A stretch of 64,000 nucleotides of DNA from Escherichia coli (GTDB taxonomy: Bacteria; Pseudomonadota; Gammaproteobacteria; Enterobacterales; Enterobacteriaceae), in the NCBI RefSeq assembly GCF_003334385.1, contig NZ_QOWN01000010.1, one strand, 5' to 3'. Each line of letters begins with the position of its first letter. Position 1 is the stretch's first letter. The notes beneath the pieces are model-generated. The model saw only the letters and a list, made by a program, of their open reading frames with translations, made no database searches and was not told the origin of the DNA. Both the position numbers and the translations under genes were made by a program. This document shows, piece after piece, positions 33,198 to 42,263 of the stretch.

Positions 33198-35378
33198 TTA
33201 CTCTTTCTCGGAGTAACTATAACCGTAATAGTTATAGCCGTAACTGTAAGCGGTGCTGGCGCGTTTAATCACACCATTGAGGATAGCGCCTTTAATATTG
33301 ACGCCTGCCTGTTCCAGACGCTGCATTGACAAACTCACCTCTTTGGCGGTGTTCAAGCCAAAACGCGCAACCAGCAGGCTGGTGCCAACAGAACGCCCCA
33401 CGACCGCGGCATCACTCACCGCCAGCATCGGCGGCGTATCGACAATCACCAGATCGTAATGGTCGTTCGCCCATTCCAGTAATTGACGCATCCGATCGCG
33501 CATCAGCAGTTCAGACGGGTTAGGTGGCACCTGACCGCGAGTAATCACATCAAAGCCTCCTTTGCCAAAATGCTGGATCACTTTGTTGAGCTCATCTTTA
33601 CCTGCCAGATATTCCGACAAGCCATGTTCATTACTCACGGTAAACAGGTTATGCGAATAACCACGGCGTAAGTCGGCATCAATAAATAACACTTTTTGAT
33701 CGGACTGGGCGATCACCGCTGCCAGAGTTGAACTGACAAACGTTTTACCACTGTCTGGCGTCGCACCGGTGATCATTAGAATGTTATTCTCCGTCTCCAT
33801 CATAGCGAAATGCAGACTGGTTCGTAGCGCACGTACGGCTTCCACAGCAGAATCCGCCGGGTTATCCACCGCCAGGAAGGGGATATTTTTAGTACGATGG
33901 CGCTGCTGATTAGAAAATAAATTTTTCTTACGCAGACGGGTGCGTTTATCCAGCCACTCGGACATTGGGATAGTGGCATAAACGCTGATGCCGTGCTCTT
34001 CCAGTTGTTCCGGGGCTTCTACACCACGACGCAACATCGCACGCGCCAGCACGGCACCCACAGAAATAAACAGGCCAAGAATAAAACCAAGCACCACGTT
34101 CAACGCTTTTTTCGGTTTCACTGGCTGCGGCTGAGTGACTGCCGGGTCGATAATCCGCACGTTACCAATGGCACTGGATTTCGAAATACTCAACTCCTGC
34201 TGGCGGTTAAGTAATTGCAGATATACCGCACGGCCCGCTTCTACGTCACGACTTAAACGCAACACTTCCTGTTGGGTGGAAGGCATTGCCGATACCCGCT
34301 TATTCAGGCGTTTGCGTTCTTGCTCCAGCGTCTGGCGTTTTTCCAGCAGCGCACGATAAGTTGGGTGATCTTTCTTATACAGCTGGGAGATCTCTGCCTC
34401 GCGGAAGGTCAGCTCATTGAGTTGATTATCAACGTTCACAATCTGCTCAAGAACGGCTTTGGCTTCCAGGTTAAGGTCAACCGAATCGCGCTGCTGGCGA
34501 TAAACGTTGAGTTTTTCTTCCGCTTGGTCCAGCTCGCTGCGCACTTCAGGTAACTGGCGCTGTAAGAATTCAAGGCTTTGTGAATCCTGCGCCGCCTGGC
34601 GAGCGATATTCTGTTGCAAATAGTTGTTAGCGATGCTGTTCAGAATACGAGTAATCAACTGGGGATCATCACCAGTCATGGTAAGTTCCAGCATCCCGCT
34701 TTCTTTACTGCGTTCGCTAACGGTAAAGGTTTCCTGCAATGCGTTAATCGCTTCCAGTTCGGTACGCTGGCTCAGGACAAACTGTGTTCCTGGTTTGGCC
34801 TTAATGTCCGCGATAGTCAGCGCAACGCCATCTTTTTCCAGACGCTGGCCGACCATACCATTGACGGTGAACTCTTCACCTTCCAGTGTATAGTGGCCGT
34901 TTTCCCCAACCGTGAGTGTCAGTTGCTGATCCTGACCATTCAGTTGTGGAATATGCATCCAGCTGATCGCCAGCTCACCTGGTTTTTCTTTGGTTAATCT
35001 CGCCCAGCCGCGACCCACAATCGGAAAATACTTCTGCTCAACTATGTCGCGCAGATTCAGTTCAGCAATGGTTTTACCGAGAATCATGCGCGATTGCAGC
35101 AGTTGGATCTCCGGTGCAGACTCGGGCGATGAGTTAGGGATCATATCGCTCAGGCCGCTGAGAATGGCGTTGCCCTGTTTTTGCTCAACCTGGACCAGAG
35201 TATCTGCCTGATAAATTGGTGTGCTTAACAGCGAGTAAGCGACAGCGATCAGCGTGAATAACGCGGTCACGCTGATAATAAACTTACGGTGATCCCATAA
35301 CTCGCCGACCAGACGAAGCAGATCGATCTCATTTTCCTGAGTGCTGCCTGGTGGCGTATTCATATTTTTAGTTGTCAT
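33198..35378 (-). CDS. etk: Tyrosine autokinase Etk (Wzc paralogue)
   Basis: 726-aa ORF; Walker A GATPDSGKT and C-terminal tyrosine cluster YSYGYNYYGYSYSE. Confidence 0.95.
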   Translation of the reverse strand: MTTKNMNTPPGSTQENEIDLLRLVGELWDHRKFIISVTALFTLIAVAYSLLSTPIYQADTLVQVEQKQGNAILSGLSDMIPNSSPESAPEIQLLQSRMILGKTIAELNLRDIVEQKYFPIVGRGWARLTKEKPGELAISWMHIPQLNGQDQQLTLTVGENGHYTLEGEEFTVNGMVGQRLEKDGVALTIADIKAKPGTQFVLSQRTELEAINALQETFTVSERSKESGMLELTMTGDDPQLITRILNSIANNYLQQNIARQAAQDSQSLEFLQRQLPEVRSELDQAEEKLNVYRQQRDSVDLNLEAKAVLEQIVNVDNQLNELTFREAEISQLYKKDHPTYRALLEKRQTLEQERKRLNKRVSAMPSTQQEVLRLSRDVEAGRAVYLQLLNRQQELSISKSSAIGNVRIIDPAVTQPQPVKPKKALNVVLGFILGLFISVGAVLARAMLRRGVEAPEQLEEHGISVYATIPMSEWLDKRTRLRKKNLFSNQQRHRTKNIPFLAVDNPADSAVEAVRALRTSLHFAMMETENNILMITGATPDSGKTFVSSTLAAVIAQSDQKVLFIDADLRRGYSHNLFTVSNEHGLSEYLAGKDELNKVIQHFGKGGFDVITRGQVPPNPSELLMRDRMRQLLEWANDHYDLVIVDTPPMLAVSDAAVVGRSVGTSLLVARFGLNTAKEVSLSMQRLEQAGVNIKGAILNGVIKRASTAYSYGYNYYGYSYSEKE

Positions 35379-35397
35379 CGTATTTTATAAACTCAAA

Positions 35398-35844
35398 TTA
35401 CCGGCTGAGGCGCTTCGCCCATTCCTGACTGGCGCGCTCCAACATACCGTAGACATGTTCAAATGCGTCCTGACTTTTACGATAGGGATCCGGGATCTCT
35501 TTCTGTTCCAGCCATTGCCCAAACAGCATTGTCTTCCCGCGGACCTCGGGAGCAATTGCGGTAACCTGAGCAATATGTTCCGACTCCATTGCCAGAATCA
35601 GATCGTAATTTCGTGCCATCTCAGCAGTGAGCTTACGTCCGGCATGTCCTTCAAGAGATACGCCATGATTAGCGGCAACATCTGCCGCTGTCGCATCTGC
35701 AGGGTGTTTTACCAGACCATGAACACCTGCCGATTTGACTTTTACGCCCGGCAGACGTTTACGCAGCAAGCGCTCGCCAATGGGCGAACGGCAAATGTTG
35801 CCGGTACAAACCACCAGGATTGAGTTAAATTTTAGTTGGGCCAT
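35398..35844 (-). CDS. etp: Low-molecular-weight phosphotyrosine phosphatase Etp
   Basis: ORF trimmed to [21 protein letters not shown] (148 aa); CTGNICRS P-loop. Confidence 0.93.
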
Positions 35845-36971
35845 GTTTGAATCCACCGTGAAGTCTCTGTCAGGTCATGCACCCCGGAAATCGTCGGTAC
35901 CAGCAGAGAAATCACACGGTTCCAACGAGCCAGCGGCGCGGTAGTGACATAAACAATGTCGTAAGGTTCAAGCTGGAATTCCGTTCCGAGTATCATTGCC
36001 GATGCGTCCTTCGCATTCAGCTGATAAATATTGGCGATTTTGCCATTCTGCTTGTTTTGCGTTGCACGAATAACAAAAATCCCCGTCGCATCAGCGACAT
36101 CCTGATTCATACCCTCAGCGTTACCCAGCGCTTCCGCCAGGGTCATACCGCTGCGGTCCATTTTCAGCGTGCTCTGTTTACCCACTTCACCCATCACGAA
36201 GACTTTCAGATCATCGTTGCGCGGAATAAATAAAATATCGCCCGGGTGCAGCAGTTTGTTCTGGCGCAAGTCGCCACGCTGCATCAGCGCATAGAGGTTC
36301 ACTTTGGTCTTTACGCCATTCTGGGTGAGCACCACGTTGCGCCAGTCTGCATCTGCGGTCAGACCGCCCGCGGCGTTAATCGCATCCATGATGGTCAGAG
36401 GAATATTGGTAATCGGCTGCTGACCCGATTTGCTGACTTCGCCGGTGACGTACGCTTTTTGCGATCGGAACGCCGCGACGCTGACATCGACTTGCGGGCT
36501 TTCAATGACTGAATCGAGACGCGCTGTAATCTCGTTGCGTACCTGGGTAAGTGTTTTCCCGGCCACTTTCAGGCGACCAATATAGGGGTAGAAAATCGCA
36601 CCATCGGCGTTAACCCAGTTGCCGGTATCACTGGCGCTACGGTATTGCCCTGCGGGGGTGGTTAGTTCCGGGTGATCCCAGACCGTAACCATCAACACAT
36701 CACCAATCCCGATACGATATTCATAGTTTGCGATTTGCTGCTCCAGCTCCGGGTTAGCCTGCGACATAATCGGTTTGGCGCGCAACTGATCAATCAATCC
36801 TGGCGTGACGGGATAGATATTGACCATTTTGTCCAGGTCATACTGATTGTCAGGTAGTTCAATGACATCCTTGTTACTGGTCGATAAATTCTGACCAGGA
36901 ACAAGGGTACATGCTGTCAAAGACAGAACAGCCAATGTCAGTACCGAAAACTTAAAAATGTTCTTTTTCAT
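35832..36971 (-). CDS. gfcE: Wza-like outer membrane polysaccharide export lipoprotein GfcE
   Basis: ORF trimmed to [21 protein letters not shown] (379 aa). Confidence 0.93.
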
Positions 36972-37016
36972 TGGTTTATATTTATCAGTCAATGTAATGT
37001 TATGAATTACGTCAGG

Positions 37017-39113
37017 TTATTGTCCAACCGGTACTTCTCGCTCTGCCGTCATTGGATAGAGCTGGTATTTGCGTGACAGCATTTGTCCACCATCACGCGT
37101 CAATGGTGTCCACGAAACCACCGCGCGGTTGCGGTTAGGTCCAATGGTCATCAAGTCGAATGGAATCGAGATATAAAAACCTTTACTAAAGCCGCCTTCG
37201 CCGTAGTCATCTTTAGATACGTTACTGATTGCCGCCCATACCCCTACCGCCACGCCGCTGTCAAAGCGTTTGGCGACGTCGATCGTTGCGCCTTTATCTT
37301 TTGCCAGATATTGCCCAACGCTAAGTTTCATCAGTACGCCATTGAGCGTCGGCGGGTTCCAGTAAGCCGTCACGAAACCTGTTGGCGTGGAATAATCGGT
37401 GAAACGCATCATGTTGTCCCAGTCACGTTGCTTCACGTAGTTAACGTCCACACCCAGCGCCCAGCAGGCATCTAGCGGGCGATAAAGCAGCTCGGAACCG
37501 ACACCGGCGTACATCGTTTCCAGATAACCGCCATACACCTGGCCATAGAAACCATTGCCTAAGTCAGCAAAATAGTTCGCCTGCAAGTTGTTGAGATAAA
37601 CGTCATTGCGAACGTAGTCACGGATATGCGTGCGCACGCGGGGCAGGGTAGAGTCCGCGGGCAACAGCGAAGACTTAAACTTGTCGTAGTTGTTGTAAAT
37701 ATTGGTGAAAATACCGCCATCAAGCAGCAGGTGGTCGGTAAACCAGTAGCGGGCACTGGACATCAGCCCCAGCTGGAACATATAGAAATCTTCCGGGCCG
37801 CCCAGCGACTGTGAAAGTGTTGGGTTGAAAGAGTAGCTAAAGCGATCTTCACGAATACGGTAGCCCCGACCAAAGGCAGAAAGATCTTCAGCTTCAACAC
37901 GTTGTTGTTGCAGTGGCTCTGATTGACCAGGCGCTGTACCTGCCAGCTGTTTGCGCAGGCTGGCTACGTCGGTTTCGGTAGTCACCATCGCCATATGCTC
38001 GCGCTTTTGCGTCACGCTAATCTTCTCAACGCCTTGCGGCAGGTTATTCACCAGAATCCGGTTGGCACGATCGACCGCTTCACGAGAGTCACGGTATTTG
38101 TATTGCTGACCAGACATATACAGTGTCTTATCGCGTAGCTGAATTTCTGGCGCGTCAAAGCCCGCGTTATACTTCAGGGCGGTAAGTTGGTTTGCTACCG
38201 TGGTGTACTGCAATCCTTCAGATTCAGGCGCAGGTTGATATGCCGGTTTTGGCGTATCGCGCAGGGCAGGGCGCAGATCGTTGAAATTGGTCCGTAACGT
38301 GAAGCCAAACATCAACGTGTTACCGCGTTCATAACTCAGGTTGAGATCTGCCCAGCTGGCTGCGCGATAAACTGCGCCGACGTTGAAATGGCTTGCCTGA
38401 GGCAGTTTGCCAGCGAAATCATTCTGGTAATTGTTTCCATCGTATTCGAGTTTCAGACGCAGGGGATTCCACGGCGTTTGATACTCAATGCCGCCAAAGA
38501 TGGAAGCCGGGCCACGAAAGATATCGCTAAAGCTGATATCGCCCGCATCGTGAGACTCTGCGCGATGACAATATTTATCGCTCACCCGGCAAAACGGGTT
38601 GGTAATATTGCCCGCATTACCGGCGTAGCCCCATGCCATCCCGAGGGTGAAATCAAATGGCCCCGCTTGCTTGCTGGCCACCAGATACTCACCGTCAAAC
38701 AGACCCGTACCAGCAATATCACGTTTACCAAACGCCACTTGCGGTAGCCAGTAACCTTCTTCCCACAGGCGAAGTTTAAAATCGAATGATTTGTCTTTGT
38801 ATGACTGATCGCCGCTGAAATCTTCCCACTGGCTATATTTGCGTGTGCGCACATCCGTATAACGAATGGTGCCTTCCAGCCATGGGAACAGCGCCACGGA
38901 GGTGGAGTAGAACCGGTATTGATCGTTATCCCGGTAGTTGACGCTGAATTCACCTTCCGGTGCGATGCGCGCATTTGGCATCTGCAACAATCCTGTGCCG
39001 CCAAAGTCTGATTGCGACGAACCCAGCGGATCCGGGTAGGTTAATACTTCAGCATGACAGGCACTGGAGACGGCAATGGCCAGGCAGCTTAAAAGATAAG
39101 AATTCTTCTTCAT
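37017..39113 (-). CDS. gfcD: Outer membrane beta-barrel lipoprotein GfcD
   Basis: 698-aa ORF; operon position. Confidence 0.93.
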
Positions 39114-39859
39114 CAGTCAGGAACACGTTGCGTTAAAACAGACACAATCTGGTCATTTAAATCAGCATATTTTTCGGGCAGTACATGCGCAGAAAAGCCC
39201 AACCAAAGCTGGCTGCCAGGCGGTGGTTCCACATGTCTTTTATTCCACAGGGCAACAGGGGCGACGACAGTCTCACCCTCAGGCGTAATCACCATAACGT
39301 TATTCTTGTCCGCGCCTGCAAGGCGGGGGTGATCTTGCAGATAATCGGTAACGCTACGGCCTGCCTGCCAGGGCAATTGCCCGGCCCCAGAAACCGCACC
39401 CAGCAGAGTAATAGTCACCGGACGCTGTACGGTATAGAGCGTATAGTCCCCGACCAACGGGGGATTGCTGTTCTCATCCACTCGTACAAAATCAGGGTCC
39501 AGTTTGACCGGTAAGCGACCAGTGATATTGAGATTGAGTAACTGCTGGCGCACGGATTTAATCGTTGCCGCCACATCGTCGTCAGCTTCTGCTTCCCAGG
39601 AAGCAAGCTGTGCCATGACATGTTGGTAGTCTTTAAGCGCTTTAGCTTTCGCCGCAGAGTCGGTCAGCAAGGCACCAGGCCACCAGAGGCGATCGCGCAG
39701 TTGCGGTTGTGTCACCAACTGGACAACATTTTCCACGGGGCCAACGGAAAGTGTCTGTTGTTCGCCAGGCAGATAAATAGTCACCGTTCCTTGCGCAAAG
39801 GCATGGGGTGTCATTACGTAAAGTACGCTGGCAATGAAATACGACTGTAATTTATTCAT
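39113..39859 (-). CDS. gfcC: Periplasmic protein GfcC
   Basis: 248-aa ORF with signal peptide. Confidence 0.93.
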
Positions 39860-40500
39860 GGTGCGGGTTTAAGAAACGTCATTTCTACGGGAATAACCCC
39901 TGCGCCTAACATTTGCCGACTTTGACGAACCTGGCCAGTAGCCGAATCGACCCAGAATGTGTTTTGCCACTGTTTTTCTGGCCGCGTGGAAGTCACCTCT
40001 TCCTGCCAGACATTACACAGCACATTGCGACCCGCAATATTCAGCGTCTCTAATCCAGCAAAGGAAAAAGTAGAACTCAGGGTCGCAGAGCGAAAATGGT
40101 TGTCTTCACTCCAGAGAATATCGCGCGTCCAGCGGCTGCCATCTTTTATTGCCAGCGCGTTACGCAGAGGGTCCTGCCCGGAATTTGTCACTTCCAGCAG
40201 ATTATTATTAAGTTTGACGGTTTTTAAAAGACGTCCATTGTGGGTAACCAGCATGGCGTTATCCTGGGATAACCATTTGCTTTGTTCTTGTTCTATATAT
40301 CCCAGTACCACAAAGATTCGTTGCCCTTCATTAAGGCGTAAATACATAGTGGAATAAGGCAACGCCTGGATCTGCTGATCCGCTACGGTGATATCCTGAT
40401 TATCGAAAAGGCTGGCGCGAAATGTATCGACCATACTTTGCTGGCTGTGCGTACATCCCGCAAGAAATAGTGCGAAAATCGATAAAATAAGAGGGCGCAC
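39856..40500 (-). CDS. gfcB: Lipoprotein GfcB
   Basis: 214-aa ORF with lipobox LAGCTHS. Confidence 0.93.
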   Translation of the reverse strand: MRPLILSIFALFLAGCTHSQQSMVDTFRASLFDNQDITVADQQIQALPYSTMYLRLNEGQRIFVVLGYIEQEQSKWLSQDNAMLVTHNGRLLKTVKLNNNLLEVTNSGQDPLRNALAIKDGSRWTRDILWSEDNHFRSATLSSTFSFAGLETLNIAGRNVLCNVWQEEVTSTRPEKQWQNTFWVDSATGQVRQSRQMLGAGVIPVEMTFLKPAP

Positions 40501-40606
40501 CTTTAATCCTTGAAAGGTTAATTAAAAAAATGCAAATCTCTAAAGCCCGGTACGAATATCGCAACCGGGTATCATTTAACTTTAATTTCGACGCGTTAAA
40601 GCAGTA

Positions 40607-40912
40607 TTAGCGTGTAGTGGACGTGGTGGTTGAGGTGTTATGAGAACCGCCATCGCCACTGTCATTTGCTGCAACAACTGCCAACGTCGCCACACCAACA
40701 GCCGTTGCCACACCGACAACTGTCGCCGTGCCGACAGCGCCAGCAGCCACGCCACCAGTGGTAGTAGCAGTCGTGGTTGCGCCGGTAGTGGTCGTTGTGG
40801 TGCCAGTAGTACCCGTCGTTGCCTCGGTCCCGTTTGTTGCTTCAGGGGCAGCAAACGCAGCTGGCGTCGTCAACATGAAGGCCATAAGGATTGCAGAAAG
40901 CTTGTGTTTCAT
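40607..40912 (-). CDS. gfcA: Thr-rich inner membrane protein GfcA
   Basis: ORF trimmed to MKHKLSAILMAFMLTTPAAFA (101 aa); long Thr/Gly/Ala/Val low-complexity tract. Confidence 0.88.
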   Translation of the reverse strand: MKHKLSAILMAFMLTTPAAFAAPEATNGTEATTGTTGTTTTTTGATTTATTTGGVAAGAVGTATVVGVATAVGVATLAVVAANDSGDGGSHNTSTTTSTTR

Positions 40913-41353
40913 AACTTTTCCTTTATTCATCGCATGGACAATACGTACGCTTGAGATCAGGATTGTCTACTTTGAGTATAACATCCTTGTGAAATCTCCC
41001 TTTCCTCATACCGCTTGCACTATATACTGCGGGTAGGAAAGGCGCGCAGAGGGAAATATAAGATTGTTAACTATCCCCCTCTGGAAATACGACTTGTGAG
41101 CATAAGATAAATCTTAGCAAAATACAAATTAAAGATAAGGAAATTGTTACGAAAGCTATTAATTATTGTTGGTAATATAGTTTCAAGTGGTACTATAACT
41201 GGCTGTTAAATGGCATTTATAACTATTAGGTGCAGAGATATTCGCTTAAATGGATTAGTTTCTTTGTGGAAAAGTAACTGATGTTATAATGTATGATGTT
41301 GACTATTGCACTATTCCAATAAAACCAGTCAGCTTTAAACAAGCAGCGTCATA

Positions 41354-41566
41354 TTAAGAGAGATAAACATTTGCCGCTGTTGGTCCTCGCAGGCCATTTA
41401 CGCGGCAAAATTCCACACGTAATCCTGGTATAAGCACTTCTGCGTCGCGGGGAGTGAATGCGGAAATATGGACCTGAACTTCTTTACGACCGTCGGAGGG
41501 GATAATGAATCCTTTGCCGCTTTTGCGATCAAAGGTTTTGACAATTCCTGTCATTTTACGGGACAA
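41354..41566 (-). CDS. cspH: Cold-shock-domain protein CspH
   Basis: 70-aa [26 protein letters not shown]... Confidence 0.93.
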
Positions 41567-41851
41567 ACAAATTCCTTACTGAAAATACTGCGCTGCACTA
41601 TACGGGGTTAATAAAATAAAGCCAGCGATATTTAAGACCGCCGGACGGCTAAAATAAAATTTGCTTAATCTCAATTATCATGCGTTAATAGCTGCGTCGG
41701 TTTGAAAGACAGACAGCATACAAAGTAGTTTACTAAAGCAGTTCTCATTATCAGGCATTATCCCCTTCTTTTGAGTCTCTCTCCTGAACACTAAGTAGTT
41801 TCTGTATTAAAGCCCTGTTTGCCGAAAGGCCCAAAATGAAGGAAGTAAAAT

Positions 41852-42064
41852 ATGTCTAATAAAATGACTGGTTTAGTAAAATGGTTTAACGCAGATAAAG
41901 GTTTTGGCTTTATCACTCCTGATGATGGCAGCAAAGACGTTTTCGTCCATTTCACCGCCATCCAGAGCAATGAATTCCGCACGCTGAACGAAAATCAGAA
42001 AGTTGAATTTTCTATTGAGCAGGGGCAACGTGGCCCCGCGGCAGCGAACGTTGTTACGCTCTAA
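41852..42064 (+). CDS. cspG: Cold shock protein CspG
   Basis: 70-aa [26 protein letters not shown]...; long AT-rich leader. Confidence 0.95.
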
Positions 42065-42263
42065 GGTTGCCATTATTACTCAACATCTCCATTTCCGCTG
42101 TCCATGTTGTCATGGTTCACAGTACCGCACATCGGCATTCGATGTGACGGAGCGAAACCCTTTGGGCGCTAAGTGTATTTTTTGTAAATCGACGATGATC
42201 ACCTTTGATAACGTCGCGCTGCAAATACGCACTGACCATGCGCCGCTGGATTTCACAAAATAA
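42051..42263 (+). CDS. ymcF: Small Cys-rich (zinc-ribbon-like) protein YmcF; start codon uncertain
   Basis: Frame of ORF 42003..42263 encodes ...[11 protein letters not shown]...CIFCKS...; no in-frame ATG before the Cys motifs, so the start must be non-canonical (TTG at 42051 proposed). Confidence 0.5.

What the first reader, a model, noticed from the sequence alone, without database searches (positions are those of the whole stretch)
40660..40860. Thr/Gly/Ala/Val low-complexity tract in gfcA
GfcA contains a run of roughly 70 residues built almost entirely of T, G, A and V (EATNGTEATTGTTGTTTTTTGATTTATTTGG...). At the DNA level this is a reiterated acc/ggt/gca/gtt tract on the minus strand, a composition prone to slippage and length variation, which could make this capsule-associated protein variable between strains. 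The same bias creates the spurious plus-strand ORFs 40640..40954 and 40728..41036.
Basis: seen in the sequence. Interest (0 to 1): 0.3.

Follow-up and report, generated by a model that had tools for sequence, protein, structure and literature searches.

The report
Threonine-rich tract of capsule protein GfcA
This is the already-described threonine-rich, low-complexity stretch of the small E. coli capsule protein GfcA; its length is almost fixed between strains, with in-frame changes in about 0.2% of genomes, so it is an ordinary, constrained feature and not a variable one.

Summary
The tract is real. gfcA lies at 40607..40912 on the minus strand and encodes 101 aa that are 30% Thr and 71% T/G/A/V. 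Residues 25-82 (58 aa, not about 70) are T/G/A/V with three exceptions.

It has two parts:
- a hydrophilic Thr/Gly segment, residues 25-54;
- a hydrophobic Gly/Ala/Val segment, residues 55-82.

The DNA is not reiterated. All four Thr codons are mixed, the longest exact repeat is 8 nt, and no codon occurs more than twice in a row.

Of 5,426 complete E. coli genomes, about 3,592 carry the gene.
- All in-frame full-length hits in three evenly spread samples had the standard length; one further hit carried a +1 frameshift.
- Among 11 alleles, 22 of 27 polymorphic sites are at third codon positions and only five residues vary.
- Targeted searches found three rare, independent in-frame events, all in residues 34-48: an 18-nt duplication (5 genomes), a 21-nt duplication (1) and a 15-nt deletion (2).

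Strains differ mainly in whether they have the gfc operon at all (absent in about a third) and in IS insertions.

The two plus-strand ORFs exist and are most likely by-products of composition.

The gene and its Thr-richness are already published.

The parts
40607..40912 (-). gfcA (ymcD) coding sequence, 101 aa plus stop. It is the first gene of an intact gfcABCDE-etp-etk operon lying between cspH and appA.
   Evidence: ORF list and translation. 100% identity to RefSeq 'gfcA: threonine-rich inner membrane protein GfcA', including K-12. Downstream ORFs of gfcB, gfcC, gfcD, gfcE, etp and etk size.
40919..40923 (-). Shine-Dalgarno-like AAGGA, 6 nt upstream of the ATG at 40912. It supports the MKHK start over the upstream in-frame ATG at 40930.
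   Evidence: Read directly from the sequence. RefSeq records annotate the 306-nt CDS.
40850..40912 (-). Predicted Sec signal peptide, residues 1-21 (MKHKLSAILMAFMLTTPAAFA, then AP). It has no Cys, so it is not a lipoprotein signal.
   Evidence: The n/h/c-region pattern and A-x-A before AP are read from the sequence. The same AxA/AP junction is present in E. albertii GfcA, P0032 and YjbE. Cleavage is inferred, not shown.
40751..40840 (-). Hydrophilic Thr/Gly-rich sub-tract, residues 25-54 (ATNGTEATTGTTGTTTTTTGATTTATTTGG). This is the part whose length varies between species.
   Evidence: Composition. The E. albertii ortholog has two in-frame deletions here, and P0032 and YjbE have much shorter equivalents.
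40769..40813 (-). Indel hot spot, residues 34-48. It holds the weak 21-nt imperfect repeat and ACCAC microhomologies, and it is the site of all three in-frame length variants found in E. coli.
   Evidence: TRF period 21 at 40763-40810. An 18-nt tandem duplication, a 21-nt tandem duplication and a 15-nt deletion all map here.
40667..40750 (-). Hydrophobic Gly/Ala/Val sub-tract, residues 55-82 (VAAGAVGTATVVGVATAVGVATLAVVAA). It is the candidate membrane-spanning or interaction segment and the best-conserved part of the protein across relatives.
   Evidence: Kyte-Doolittle 19-residue means of 1.6-2.16 over residues 54-84. Low-confidence AF2 helix at 59-83. Only V65A and V74A were seen among E. 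coli alleles. 63% identity to P0032 over residues 57-88.
40685..40738 (-). Three imperfect 18-nt units encoding a hexapeptide repeat (A/V)VG(T/V)AT inside the hydrophobic segment.
   Evidence: the repeat finder family D1: 3 copies, 100/83/72% identity, spacing 18. No length variant was seen here.
40610..40666 (-). Polar C-terminal tail, residues 83-101 (NDSGDGGSHNTSTTTSTTR), with a GDG motif and a second short Thr run shared with YjbE-type proteins.
   Evidence: Alignment A3. R101H and R101P variants occur. IS1 insertions at the extreme 3' end replace the last 1-2 residues in some strains.
40640..40954 (+). Antisense ORF (104 aa) in the codon-aligned antisense frame. Most likely a by-product of composition.
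   Evidence: Listed. Reverse complements of ACN/GCN/GGN/GTN codons cannot be stop codons (read from the code). The frame is equally open in E. albertii, the P0032 locus and yjbE. 12 of 14 substitutions in allele L007 would change its amino acids.
40728..41036 (+). Antisense ORF (102 aa, GTG start) in the antisense frame that shares wobble positions with gfcA. Most likely a by-product of composition.
   Evidence: Listed. The frame is open in all four homologous genes. The substitution pattern cannot separate it from gfcA (3 against 2 amino-acid changes for L007), so this verdict rests on composition and on the evidence that gfcA is the real gene.
40582..40854 (-). Open +1 sense frame (90 aa) overlapping gfcA. 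Frameshifted gfcA variants read into this frame.
   Evidence: Listed. The frameshift products P0008, P0011, P0012 and P0015 end in this frame's sequence.
40937..40945 (.). The 9 bases in front of gfcA where K-12-lineage strains carry IS1. The site is uninterrupted in this window.
   Evidence: K-12-type hits start at query position 36 (or 44) with a second place in the record. K-12 records span 777 extra bases annotated as IS1D.

Best explanation
The feature is the known low-complexity core of GfcA (YmcD), the small first product of the group 4 capsule operon.

**Anatomy (shown).** The protein has four parts in order:
- an A-x-A type signal peptide, residues 1-21;
- a hydrophilic, mildly acidic Thr/Gly segment, residues 25-54;
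- a hydrophobic Gly/Ala/Val segment with a hexapeptide periodicity, residues 55-82;
- a polar GDG...TTT tail.

**How the protein works (inferred).** It is exported by Sec and its signal peptide is removed. The Thr/Gly segment is then a flexible, disordered periplasmic spacer, possibly a glycan-bearing one. The Gly/Ala/Val segment holds the protein in a membrane or against its GfcB/C/D partners.

**How the tract behaves genetically (shown).**
- The amino-acid repetition is encoded with mixed synonymous codons, so the DNA offers almost no repeats for slippage.
- Sequence and length are kept by purifying selection within E. coli.
- Rare replication-slippage events, two tandem duplications and one microhomology deletion, occur in one 45-nt hot spot.
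- Between species the Thr/Gly segment changes length while the hydrophobic core stays.
- Between-strain differences at this locus come mainly from loss of the whole operon and from IS insertions.
For: **Identity and context.**
- The CDS is 100% identical to RefSeq gfcA, including K-12.
- The operon downstream is intact.

**DNA is not repetitive.** Longest exact repeat 8 nt, longest same-codon run 2, one weak TRF array.

**Length is constant in E. coli.**
- 83 of 84 full-length hits have the same span; the other is a +1 frameshift annotated as a pseudogene.
- 59 of 59 full-length hits have the 306-nt span with a CDS-only query.
- Identity bands cap large indels at 27 of 3,592 genomes or fewer.

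**Purifying selection.**
- One protein, WP_001299283.1, is shared by alleles differing at up to 12 synonymous sites.
- dN/dS is 0.06-0.24.
- 22 of 27 polymorphic sites are at third codon positions.
- Only T26A, T50A, V65A, V74A and R101H/P vary.

**Rare slippage products.**
- +18 tandem duplication: 107 aa, 5 genomes, including O169:H41 strains.
- +21 tandem duplication: 108 aa, 1 genome, on a different allelic background.
- -15 deletion between ACCAC repeats: 96 aa, 2 genomes plus one plasmid copy.
- All three map to residues 34-48.

**Between species.**
- The syntenic E. albertii ortholog is 94 aa, with its indels in the Thr segment and C-tail only.
- P0032 and YjbE share the architecture with short or no Thr segment.

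**Operon loss and IS disruption**.

**Literature.**
- gfcA is 30% Thr and predicted to be an inner-membrane or secreted protein (PMC8592465).
- All seven genes of the operon, including ymcD, are required for capsule in EPEC O127 (PMC4368438, citing Peleg 2005).
Against: - The census is not exhaustive. Only up to 60 rows per search are visible, so small (3-9 nt) indels could hide among the 1,069 genomes in the 95-99% identity band. Only about 17 of those were sampled.
- The topology and function steps are untested here. AF2 gave no confident structure (mean pLDDT 44).
- The hydrophobic segment is only marginal as a stop-transfer helix: the simple-sum biological-scale estimate is about +1 kcal/mol, and no positive charges follow it.
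- The paralog YjbE lacks a comparably hydrophobic segment. This weakens the 'inner membrane anchor' part of the statement.
- The observed codon mixing is not significantly more repeat-avoiding than random synonymous recoding: 16-35% of shuffles are as low or lower. Avoidance of repeats is therefore a description, not a demonstrated adaptation.
Confidence: 0.82

Rival explanations
1. One reading: the tract is a slippage-prone, hypervariable region that makes GfcA length differ commonly between strains, in the manner of a contingency locus.
For: In-frame indels typical of slippage do exist, and all fall in one hot spot. The paralog yjbE acquired a +9 bp in-frame insertion in a laboratory evolution experiment (PMC8540638, Table 1). 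Orthologs in other species and genera differ in tract length (bioRxiv 10.1101/391854).
Against: There are no perfect tandem repeats, and the longest exact repeat is 8 nt. Only 8 of about 3,592 genomes carry variants, from three events. None of about 140 sampled full-length hits has an in-frame indel. The protein is nearly invariant despite dS up to 0.15.
Confidence: 0.05
2. A rival for topology: mature GfcA is not an inner-membrane protein. It is fully translocated and acts in the periplasm, at the outer membrane or at the cell surface as a partner or cargo of GfcB/C/D. The Gly/Ala/Val segment would then serve for oligomerisation or partner binding, not as a transmembrane helix.
For: The hydrophobic segment is marginal (about +1 kcal/mol by simple sum), and the C-tail is net acidic with no positive-inside signal. 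YjbE has the same architecture and operon position but replaces much of the segment with Ser. The partners GfcB, GfcC and GfcD are periplasmic or outer-membrane proteins, and the authors themselves say 'inner membrane or secreted' (PMC8592465).
Against: Kyte-Doolittle means up to 2.16 over 19 residues exceed the usual transmembrane threshold. AF2 draws a helix at 59-83, though with low confidence. SOSUI predicts one transmembrane region, and YmcD overexpression changes D-Ala retention, which is compatible with membrane insertion (PMC10299036). RefSeq names it an inner membrane protein, but that name is itself a prediction.
Confidence: 0.35
3. The Thr/Gly segment has no function of its own. Its constancy in E. 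coli would then reflect only recent common ancestry, and it would drift freely in length over longer times.
For: Its length differs between E. coli and E. albertii, and it is nearly absent in P0032 and YjbE. The 96-aa and 107-aa alleles sit in front of intact gfcB genes, so they are tolerated at least for a time.
Against: Alleles with up to 16 nucleotide differences keep the segment's length, and all but two of its residues are unchanged. In the tract dS is 0.18 against dN 0.017. Substitutions stay within the T/A set.
Confidence: 0.15
4. One of the plus-strand ORFs (40640..40954 or 40728..41036) is a real antisense gene overlapping gfcA.
For: Both are over 100 codons. The 40728..41036 frame shares wobble positions with gfcA, so it looks nearly as conserved (3 amino-acid changes against 2), and it stays open in E. 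albertii.
Against: Openness follows from codon composition alone, because two of the three antisense frames of ACN/GCN/GGN/GTN strings cannot contain stops. The same two frames are open in the distant homologs P0032 and yjbE. No RefSeq record annotates them. No promoter-like site was found in the region. The products are Val/Pro/Ala or Cys/Arg/Ser strings.
Confidence: 0.02

Closest known systems
E. coli K-12 GfcA (YmcD, b0987), RefSeq 'threonine-rich inner membrane protein GfcA'
   Same: The coding sequence is identical (100% over 306 nt to K-12 records). The operon position between cspH and gfcB is the same. It has the published 30% Thr content and 101-aa length (PMC8592465).
   Different: K-12 carries IS1 25-33 nt upstream of the start codon. 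This window does not, so the operon here keeps its native upstream region.
E. coli YjbE (b4026; Pfam PF11106 YjbE family), first gene of yjbEFGH
   Same: It is the first small gene ahead of YjbF/GfcC/YjbH-family genes. It has an AxA-AP signal-peptide junction, a Ser/Thr/Ala/Gly low-complexity body, a short hydrophobic AVGVALAA core, a GDG motif and a poly-Thr tail. The literature treats gfcABCD and yjbEFGH as homologous operons (PMC8592465; bioRxiv 10.1101/2023.12.04.565983).
   Different: There is no detectable pairwise similarity (BLASTP none). GfcA does not reach the Pfam YjbE model. YjbE is Ser-rich, not Thr-rich, in its N-terminal part, is 80 aa long, and lacks a segment hydrophobic enough for a transmembrane helix.
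Escherichia albertii GfcA ortholog (P0005 family)
   Same: It is syntenic (torS-yccM-gnsA-ymcE-ymcF-cspG-cspH-gfcA-gfcB-gfcC-gfcD-gfcE). The signal peptide is identical, the hydrophobic core differs at two residues (V66A, T76A) and the tail is nearly identical.
   Different: It is 94 aa from the MKHK start. It has two in-frame deletions and several substitutions in the Thr/Gly segment and one Thr fewer in the tail. This shows where length change is tolerated.
Simple-sequence contingency loci (phase-variable genes with perfect short tandem repeats)
   Same: The coding region is compositionally repetitive, and its rare variants are in-frame duplications or deletions of slippage type.
   Different: There is no perfect repeat array. 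Variants occur in about 0.2% of genomes, not commonly. The events are in-frame changes of 15-21 nt, not on/off frameshifts.
Extracytoplasmic Ser/Thr-rich disordered regions that are O-glycosylated (streptococcal membrane-associated proteins, PMC12041528)
   Same: It is a Thr-rich, probably disordered segment placed outside the cytoplasm next to a hydrophobic segment. O-antigen modification of GfcA has been proposed (PMC8592465).
   Different: There is no evidence of glycosylation for GfcA, and no dedicated O-glycosyltransferase was identified here. This is only a resemblance by analogy.

Membership tests
GfcA (E. coli group 4 capsule operon, first gene) | Sequence identity to reference GfcA | tested here: met
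   100% nucleotide identity over the 306-nt CDS to records annotated gfcA, including K-12 MG1655.
GfcA (E. coli group 4 capsule operon, first gene) | Position as first gene of gfcABCDE-etp-etk, between cspH and appA | tested here: met
   ORFs of the right sizes and order on the minus strand. RefSeq annotation of matching regions lists cspH, gfcA, gfcB, gfcC and gfcD.
GfcA (E. coli group 4 capsule operon, first gene) | Required for group 4 (O-antigen) capsule formation | not testable with these tools
   Literature only: all seven genes are required in EPEC O127 (Peleg 2005, as cited in PMC4368438 and PMC8592465).
Pfam PF11106 (YjbE family) | Match to the family HMM | tested here: not met
   The Pfam scan gave no YjbE hit at E<=10. 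NCBIfam has no specific model either.
Pfam PF11106 (YjbE family) | Small signal-peptide protein encoded directly upstream of YjbF/GfcC/YjbH homologs, linked to members by intermediates | tested here: met
   The context matches. P0032 carries a PF11106 hit, heads a gfc-like operon and matches GfcA by phmmer at E=2.7e-4. The architecture aligns.
Contingency locus / hypervariable simple-sequence repeat | Array of perfect short tandem repeats in the DNA | tested here: not met
   TRF finds one weak 21-nt array, 2.3 copies, 74% matches. Longest exact repeat 8 nt, longest same-codon run 2.
Contingency locus / hypervariable simple-sequence repeat | Frequent length polymorphism among strains | tested here: not met
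   No in-frame indel among about 140 evenly sampled full-length hits. Targeted searches found 8 variant genomes of about 3,592.
Bitopic inner-membrane protein (the RefSeq name) | A hydrophobic segment able to act as a stop-transfer transmembrane helix, with matching flanking charges | tested here: inconclusive
   Kyte-Doolittle means up to 2.16, but a simple-sum biological-scale estimate of about +1 kcal/mol and an acidic C-tail. The AF2 helix at 59-83 has pLDDT<50. The paralog YjbE lacks such a segment.
O-glycosylated Ser/Thr-rich disordered region | Covalent glycan on Ser/Thr of the segment | not testable with these tools
   This is only a published speculation (PMC8592465) and an analogy with streptococcal proteins (PMC12041528).

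The most novel reading that the evidence does not exclude
The Thr/Gly segment of GfcA could be the attachment site or primer for O-antigen polymer. GfcA would then be a glycoprotein carrier or anchor of the group 4 capsule, handed to GfcB/C/D for export. The near-fixed 30-residue length in E. coli would reflect a spacing requirement between the membrane-embedded segment and the export machinery. The rare 96-, 107- and 108-aa natural alleles would then be ready-made tests of that ruler. Nothing found here excludes this; nothing found here supports it beyond purifying selection on the segment.
Probability: 0.1. Interest if true: 0.6.

Novelty: already known. Interest (0 to 1): 0.1.

Why it matters
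It matters little as a discovery. The gene, its 30% threonine content and its unknown role in group 4 capsule export are already published, and variability of gfcA across genera has been described.

The useful outcomes are practical.
- The tract should not be used as, or expected to be, a strain-typing or phase-variable marker in E. coli.
- The real strain differences at this locus are loss of the operon in about a third of genomes and IS insertions.
- Three natural in-frame alleles (96, 107 and 108 aa) and the 94-aa E. albertii form mark where length change is tolerated. They could be used to test whether the Thr segment has a spacing or glycan-acceptor function.
- The antisense ORFs should not be annotated as genes.

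Tried and rejected
- **Family scans.** Pfam gave no family hit, only DUF4781 at E=4.5. NCBIfam gave only sub-threshold noise, WGxxGxxG at 14.5 bits against a cutoff of 35.
- **Solved structures.** A PDB profile search gave no hit.
- **Representative proteins.** phmmer over 1.84 billion representatives returned only 14 hits, mostly Escherichia fragments and frameshift products. The family cannot be widened from this low-complexity query.
- **Exact look-up.** The 101-aa protein, its T26A/T50A variant and the 107-aa long-start form are not in the protein-cluster collection, so cluster membership could not be used for a length census. P0029 also had no encoding contig on record.
- **Paralog comparison.** BLASTP of GfcA against YjbE gave no alignment. 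The relationship rests on architecture, context and an intermediate.
- **Structure prediction.** AF2 with an 8-sequence alignment gave mean pLDDT 44, so no fold search was attempted.
- **Signals and RNA.** The promoter and terminator scan of 40400-41400 found nothing. Rfam found only the cspA-type thermoregulator ahead of cspG.
- **Repeat avoidance.** I tested whether codon order actively avoids repeats. The result was not significant against synonymous shuffles, so I make no such claim.
- **A divergent group of genomes.** I suspected that about 10 genomes with lower identity carried an E. albertii-like allele. They do not. They are SNP-rich alleles of standard length, such as L007 and L031.
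- **Apparent length variants.** Two of them (H238, H240) turned out to be IS1 insertions at the 3' end, not tract indels.
- **Plasmid matches.** Eight of the nine plasmid-collection matches look like chromosomal sequence filed as plasmids, judged from record sizes of up to 4.9 Mb; the ninth is the Enterobacter IncR plasmid.

Full report
**What is there.** The minus strand carries an ORF at 40607..40930. Its RefSeq-style coding sequence is 40607..40912 and encodes MKHKLSAILMAFMLTTPAAFAAPEATNGTEATTGTTGTTTTTTGATTTATTTGGVAAGAVGTATVVGVATAVGVATLAVVAANDSGDGGSHNTSTTTSTTR. An AAGGA sits 6 nt before this ATG. The protein has 30 Thr, 20 Ala, 13 Gly and 9 Val in 101 residues. The longest run made only of T/G/A/V is residues 31-76 (46 aa). 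With three exceptions the tract runs from residue 25 to 82 (58 aa), which is window 40667..40840. A pure run of this length is far beyond chance, about 3e-25 per position using E. coli-like residue frequencies taken from my own knowledge.

**It is gfcA in an intact operon.** A 421-nt query around the gene matches 3,669 of 5,426 complete E. coli genomes, many at 100%. The matched feature is annotated 'gfcA: threonine-rich inner membrane protein GfcA'. K-12 records are 100% identical over the CDS. Downstream on the same strand lie ORFs of the sizes of gfcB, gfcC, gfcD, gfcE, etp and etk, then appA. Upstream lie cspH and cspG. K-12-lineage records carry IS1 at window 40937-40945, 25-33 nt before the start codon; this window does not.

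**The tract is two things, not one.** Residues 25-54 are hydrophilic and mostly Thr and Gly, with two Glu. Residues 55-82 are hydrophobic Gly/Ala/Val. Kyte-Doolittle 19-residue means reach 2.16 there, and the segment has a three-fold 18-nt (hexapeptide) periodicity, (A/V)VG(T/V)AT. Before them is a signal-peptide-like N-terminus ending AFA, followed by AP. After them is a polar tail with a GDG motif and a second short Thr run.

**The DNA is not reiterated.**
- Thr uses ACG 10, ACC 9, ACT 7 and ACA 4; Gly, Ala and Val codons are mixed in the same way.
- Inside the 174-nt tract the longest exact direct repeat is 8 nt, and no codon occurs more than twice running.
- Tandem Repeats Finder reports one weak array at 40763-40810: period 21, 2.3 copies, 74% matches.
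- This is at the low end of what random synonymous recoding gives, but not significantly so: 16-35% of shuffles are as low or lower. I describe the absence of repeats and do not claim it is an adaptation.

**Length across E. coli.**
- Three searches listed hits taken at even steps down the whole ranking.
- With the 421-nt query, 32 of 33 and 51 of 51 full-length hits span exactly 421 nt.
- The single exception has one extra C in a C-run at CDS position 65 and is annotated as a frameshifted pseudogene.
- With the CDS-only query, 59 of 59 full-length hits span 306 nt.
- In total, none of about 140 sampled genomes has an in-frame indel.
- The identity bands (at least 99%: 2,512; 95-99%: 1,069; 90-95%: 26; 80-90%: 1) cap indels of 12 nt or more at 27 genomes.

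**Purifying selection.**
- I fetched eleven standard-length alleles, chosen towards the most divergent. They differ at 27 nucleotide sites, 22 of them third codon positions.
- They give only five variable residues: T26A, T50A, V65A, V74A and R101H/P.
- One protein accession, WP_001299283.1, is shared by alleles that differ from the window at 6 to 14 nucleotides.
- Pairwise dN/dS is 0.06-0.24 for the gene and 0.10-0.31 for the tract, with dS up to 0.18 in the tract.
- The tract is therefore constrained at the amino-acid level, not merely young.

**Rare in-frame variants do exist.** A protein search turned up a shorter E. coli form (P0002). Following its DNA led to three length classes in complete genomes.

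| Variant | Protein | Event | Where found |
|---|---|---|---|
| +18 nt | 107 aa, WP_001717979.1 | perfect tandem duplication of TACTACTGGCACCACAAC | 5 genomes, including O169:H41 strains and one ETEC-labelled isolate |
| +21 nt | 108 aa | tandem duplication of ACTACTGGCACCACAACGACC, on a different allelic background | 1 genome |
| -15 nt | 96 aa, WP_045351198.1 | loss of ACCACTACCGGCGCA between two ACCAC copies | 2 genomes |

- All three events fall in residues 34-48 (window 40769-40813), where TRF saw the weak 21-nt period.
- Their frequency is 8 of about 3,592 genomes, from three events, so it is wrong in degree.

**What does vary.**
- About a third of genomes have no gfcA at all. In them cspH abuts appA, so the whole operon is missing.
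- Others carry IS1 upstream (the K-12 type), IS1-mediated deletions, IS3 or IS5 next to or inside the gene, or IS1 at the extreme 3' end that replaces the last residues.

**Between species.**
- The E. albertii ortholog is fully syntenic and 94 aa long from the same start.
- Its signal peptide is identical and its hydrophobic core differs at two residues (V66A, T76A). Its indels lie in the Thr/Gly segment, plus one Thr in the tail.
- A more distant protein, P0032 (86 aa), heads a complete gfc-like operon and carries a Pfam YjbE hit. It has only a short Thr/Gly stretch but keeps the core (63% identity over residues 57-88) and the GDG...TTT tail.
- E. coli YjbE, the first gene of the paralogous yjbEFGH, has the same layout with Ser in place of much Thr and Val. 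BLASTP sees no similarity, and GfcA itself does not reach the Pfam model.
- The hydrophobic core and tail are therefore the conserved parts. The Thr/Gly segment is the adjustable part over long times, in line with the published finding of high gfcA variability across genera (bioRxiv 10.1101/391854).

**The antisense ORFs.**
- Strings of ACN/GCN/GGN/GTN codons cannot produce stop codons in two of the three antisense frames; this follows from the genetic code.
- Those two frames are open in E. coli, E. albertii, the P0032 locus and yjbE alike, while the third is closed.
- The 40640..40954 ORF would suffer 12 amino-acid changes from the 14 substitutions of allele L007.
- The 40728..41036 ORF shares wobble positions with gfcA. 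The substitution pattern therefore cannot reject it (3 changes against 2).
- I reject that ORF on composition, on the lack of any annotation, and on the evidence that gfcA is the real gene.
- The sense +1 frame is also open (40582..40854). It is the frame that the frameshifted products in the databases read into.

**How it probably works.**
- Shown: the anatomy, the constraint and the operon context.
- Inferred from sequence rules: Sec export and cleavage after A21. The A-x-A/AP junction is conserved in all five relatives.
- Inferred: the Thr/Gly segment is a disordered periplasmic spacer.
- Open: whether the Gly/Ala/Val segment is a true transmembrane helix. Hydropathy says yes. A simple biological-scale sum of about +1 kcal/mol, the acidic C-tail and the weakly hydrophobic YjbE counterpart say maybe not. 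AF2 is uninformative at mean pLDDT 44.
- The literature is equally undecided. It describes gfcA as an 'inner membrane or secreted protein' and speculates that it might be modified by O-antigen and passed to GfcD (PMC8592465). GfcA is called 'entirely uncharacterized' in bioRxiv 10.1101/2023.12.04.565983.

**Verdict.** The feature is the known Thr-rich region of a known gene. The slippage and variability reading holds only as a rare phenomenon. Interest is low.

Noticed in passing
window 33198..40912 (whole gfc-etp-etk operon); comparison genomes: About a third of complete E. coli genomes, including ATCC 25922, lack the entire gfc-etp-etk operon. In them cspH lies directly next to appA. Only 3,644 of the 5,413 genomes that have cspH cover at least 80% of the cspH-gfcC query.
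   Followed up: partly
window 40937..40945: This is the IS1 insertion site of K-12-lineage strains, 25-33 nt upstream of the gfcA start codon with a 9-bp duplication. The window is uninterrupted here, so unlike K-12 it keeps the native region in front of the operon.
   Followed up: partly
L030 (NZ_CP048698.1, Enterobacter hormaechei IncR conjugative plasmid pEclE4-2), locus 1718..4850: The plasmid carries a fragment of the E. coli gfc operon next to IS26: the 96-aa gfcA allele with the 15-nt deletion, plus gfcB and gfcC. Part of the capsule operon has therefore been mobilised into another genus.
   Followed up: no
L025 and L026 (E. coli O9:H10 Res13-Lact-PEB20-37-A and RM9513), 3' end of gfcA = window about 40607..40615: IS1 has inserted independently at two adjacent positions in the last codons of gfcA. 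This replaces the C-terminal TR or TTR with VMTPTY and separates gfcA from gfcB.
   Followed up: partly
window 40913..41353 (cspH-gfcA intergenic region); L012, L006: The intergenic region upstream of gfcA is more variable than the gene. One strain has a 23-nt deletion there, and another shows 55 differences in the 268 nt upstream of the gfcA start. No sigma-70-like promoter was found by the simple scan.
   Followed up: no
window 41696..42118 (+): Rfam finds a cspA-type thermoregulator (RF01766, 159 bits) covering the 5' leader and the start of cspG.
   Followed up: no
window 40607..40912; alleles L007, L031: Synonymous divergence between E. coli gfcA alleles reaches dS of about 0.15-0.18 while the protein stays the same. 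From my own knowledge this seems high for within-species E. coli comparisons, and it may reflect recombination or old allelic lineages at this locus.
   Followed up: no
protein databases: The exact 101-aa GfcA sequence and its common T26A/T50A variant are absent from the large protein-cluster collection, although the gene is in thousands of genomes. What the collection returns are mainly frameshifted, fused or truncated singletons from metagenome or read-archive assemblies.
   Followed up: partly
literature: PMC8540638 Table 1; PMC10299036: The paralog yjbE gained a +9 bp in-frame insertion in a mucoid E. coli clone evolved under Myxococcus predation. Separately, overexpressed YmcD (GfcA) came through a screen for D-alanine export candidates and lowered intracellular D-Ala.
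   Followed up: no
L016 (GCA_013342395.1 contig), locus 1501..3339: In some draft assemblies the 15-nt-deletion allele is fused at codon 88 to unrelated downstream sequence, with gfcE following after about 900 nt. This points to a larger deletion removing gfcB, gfcC and gfcD in that lineage.
   Followed up: partly
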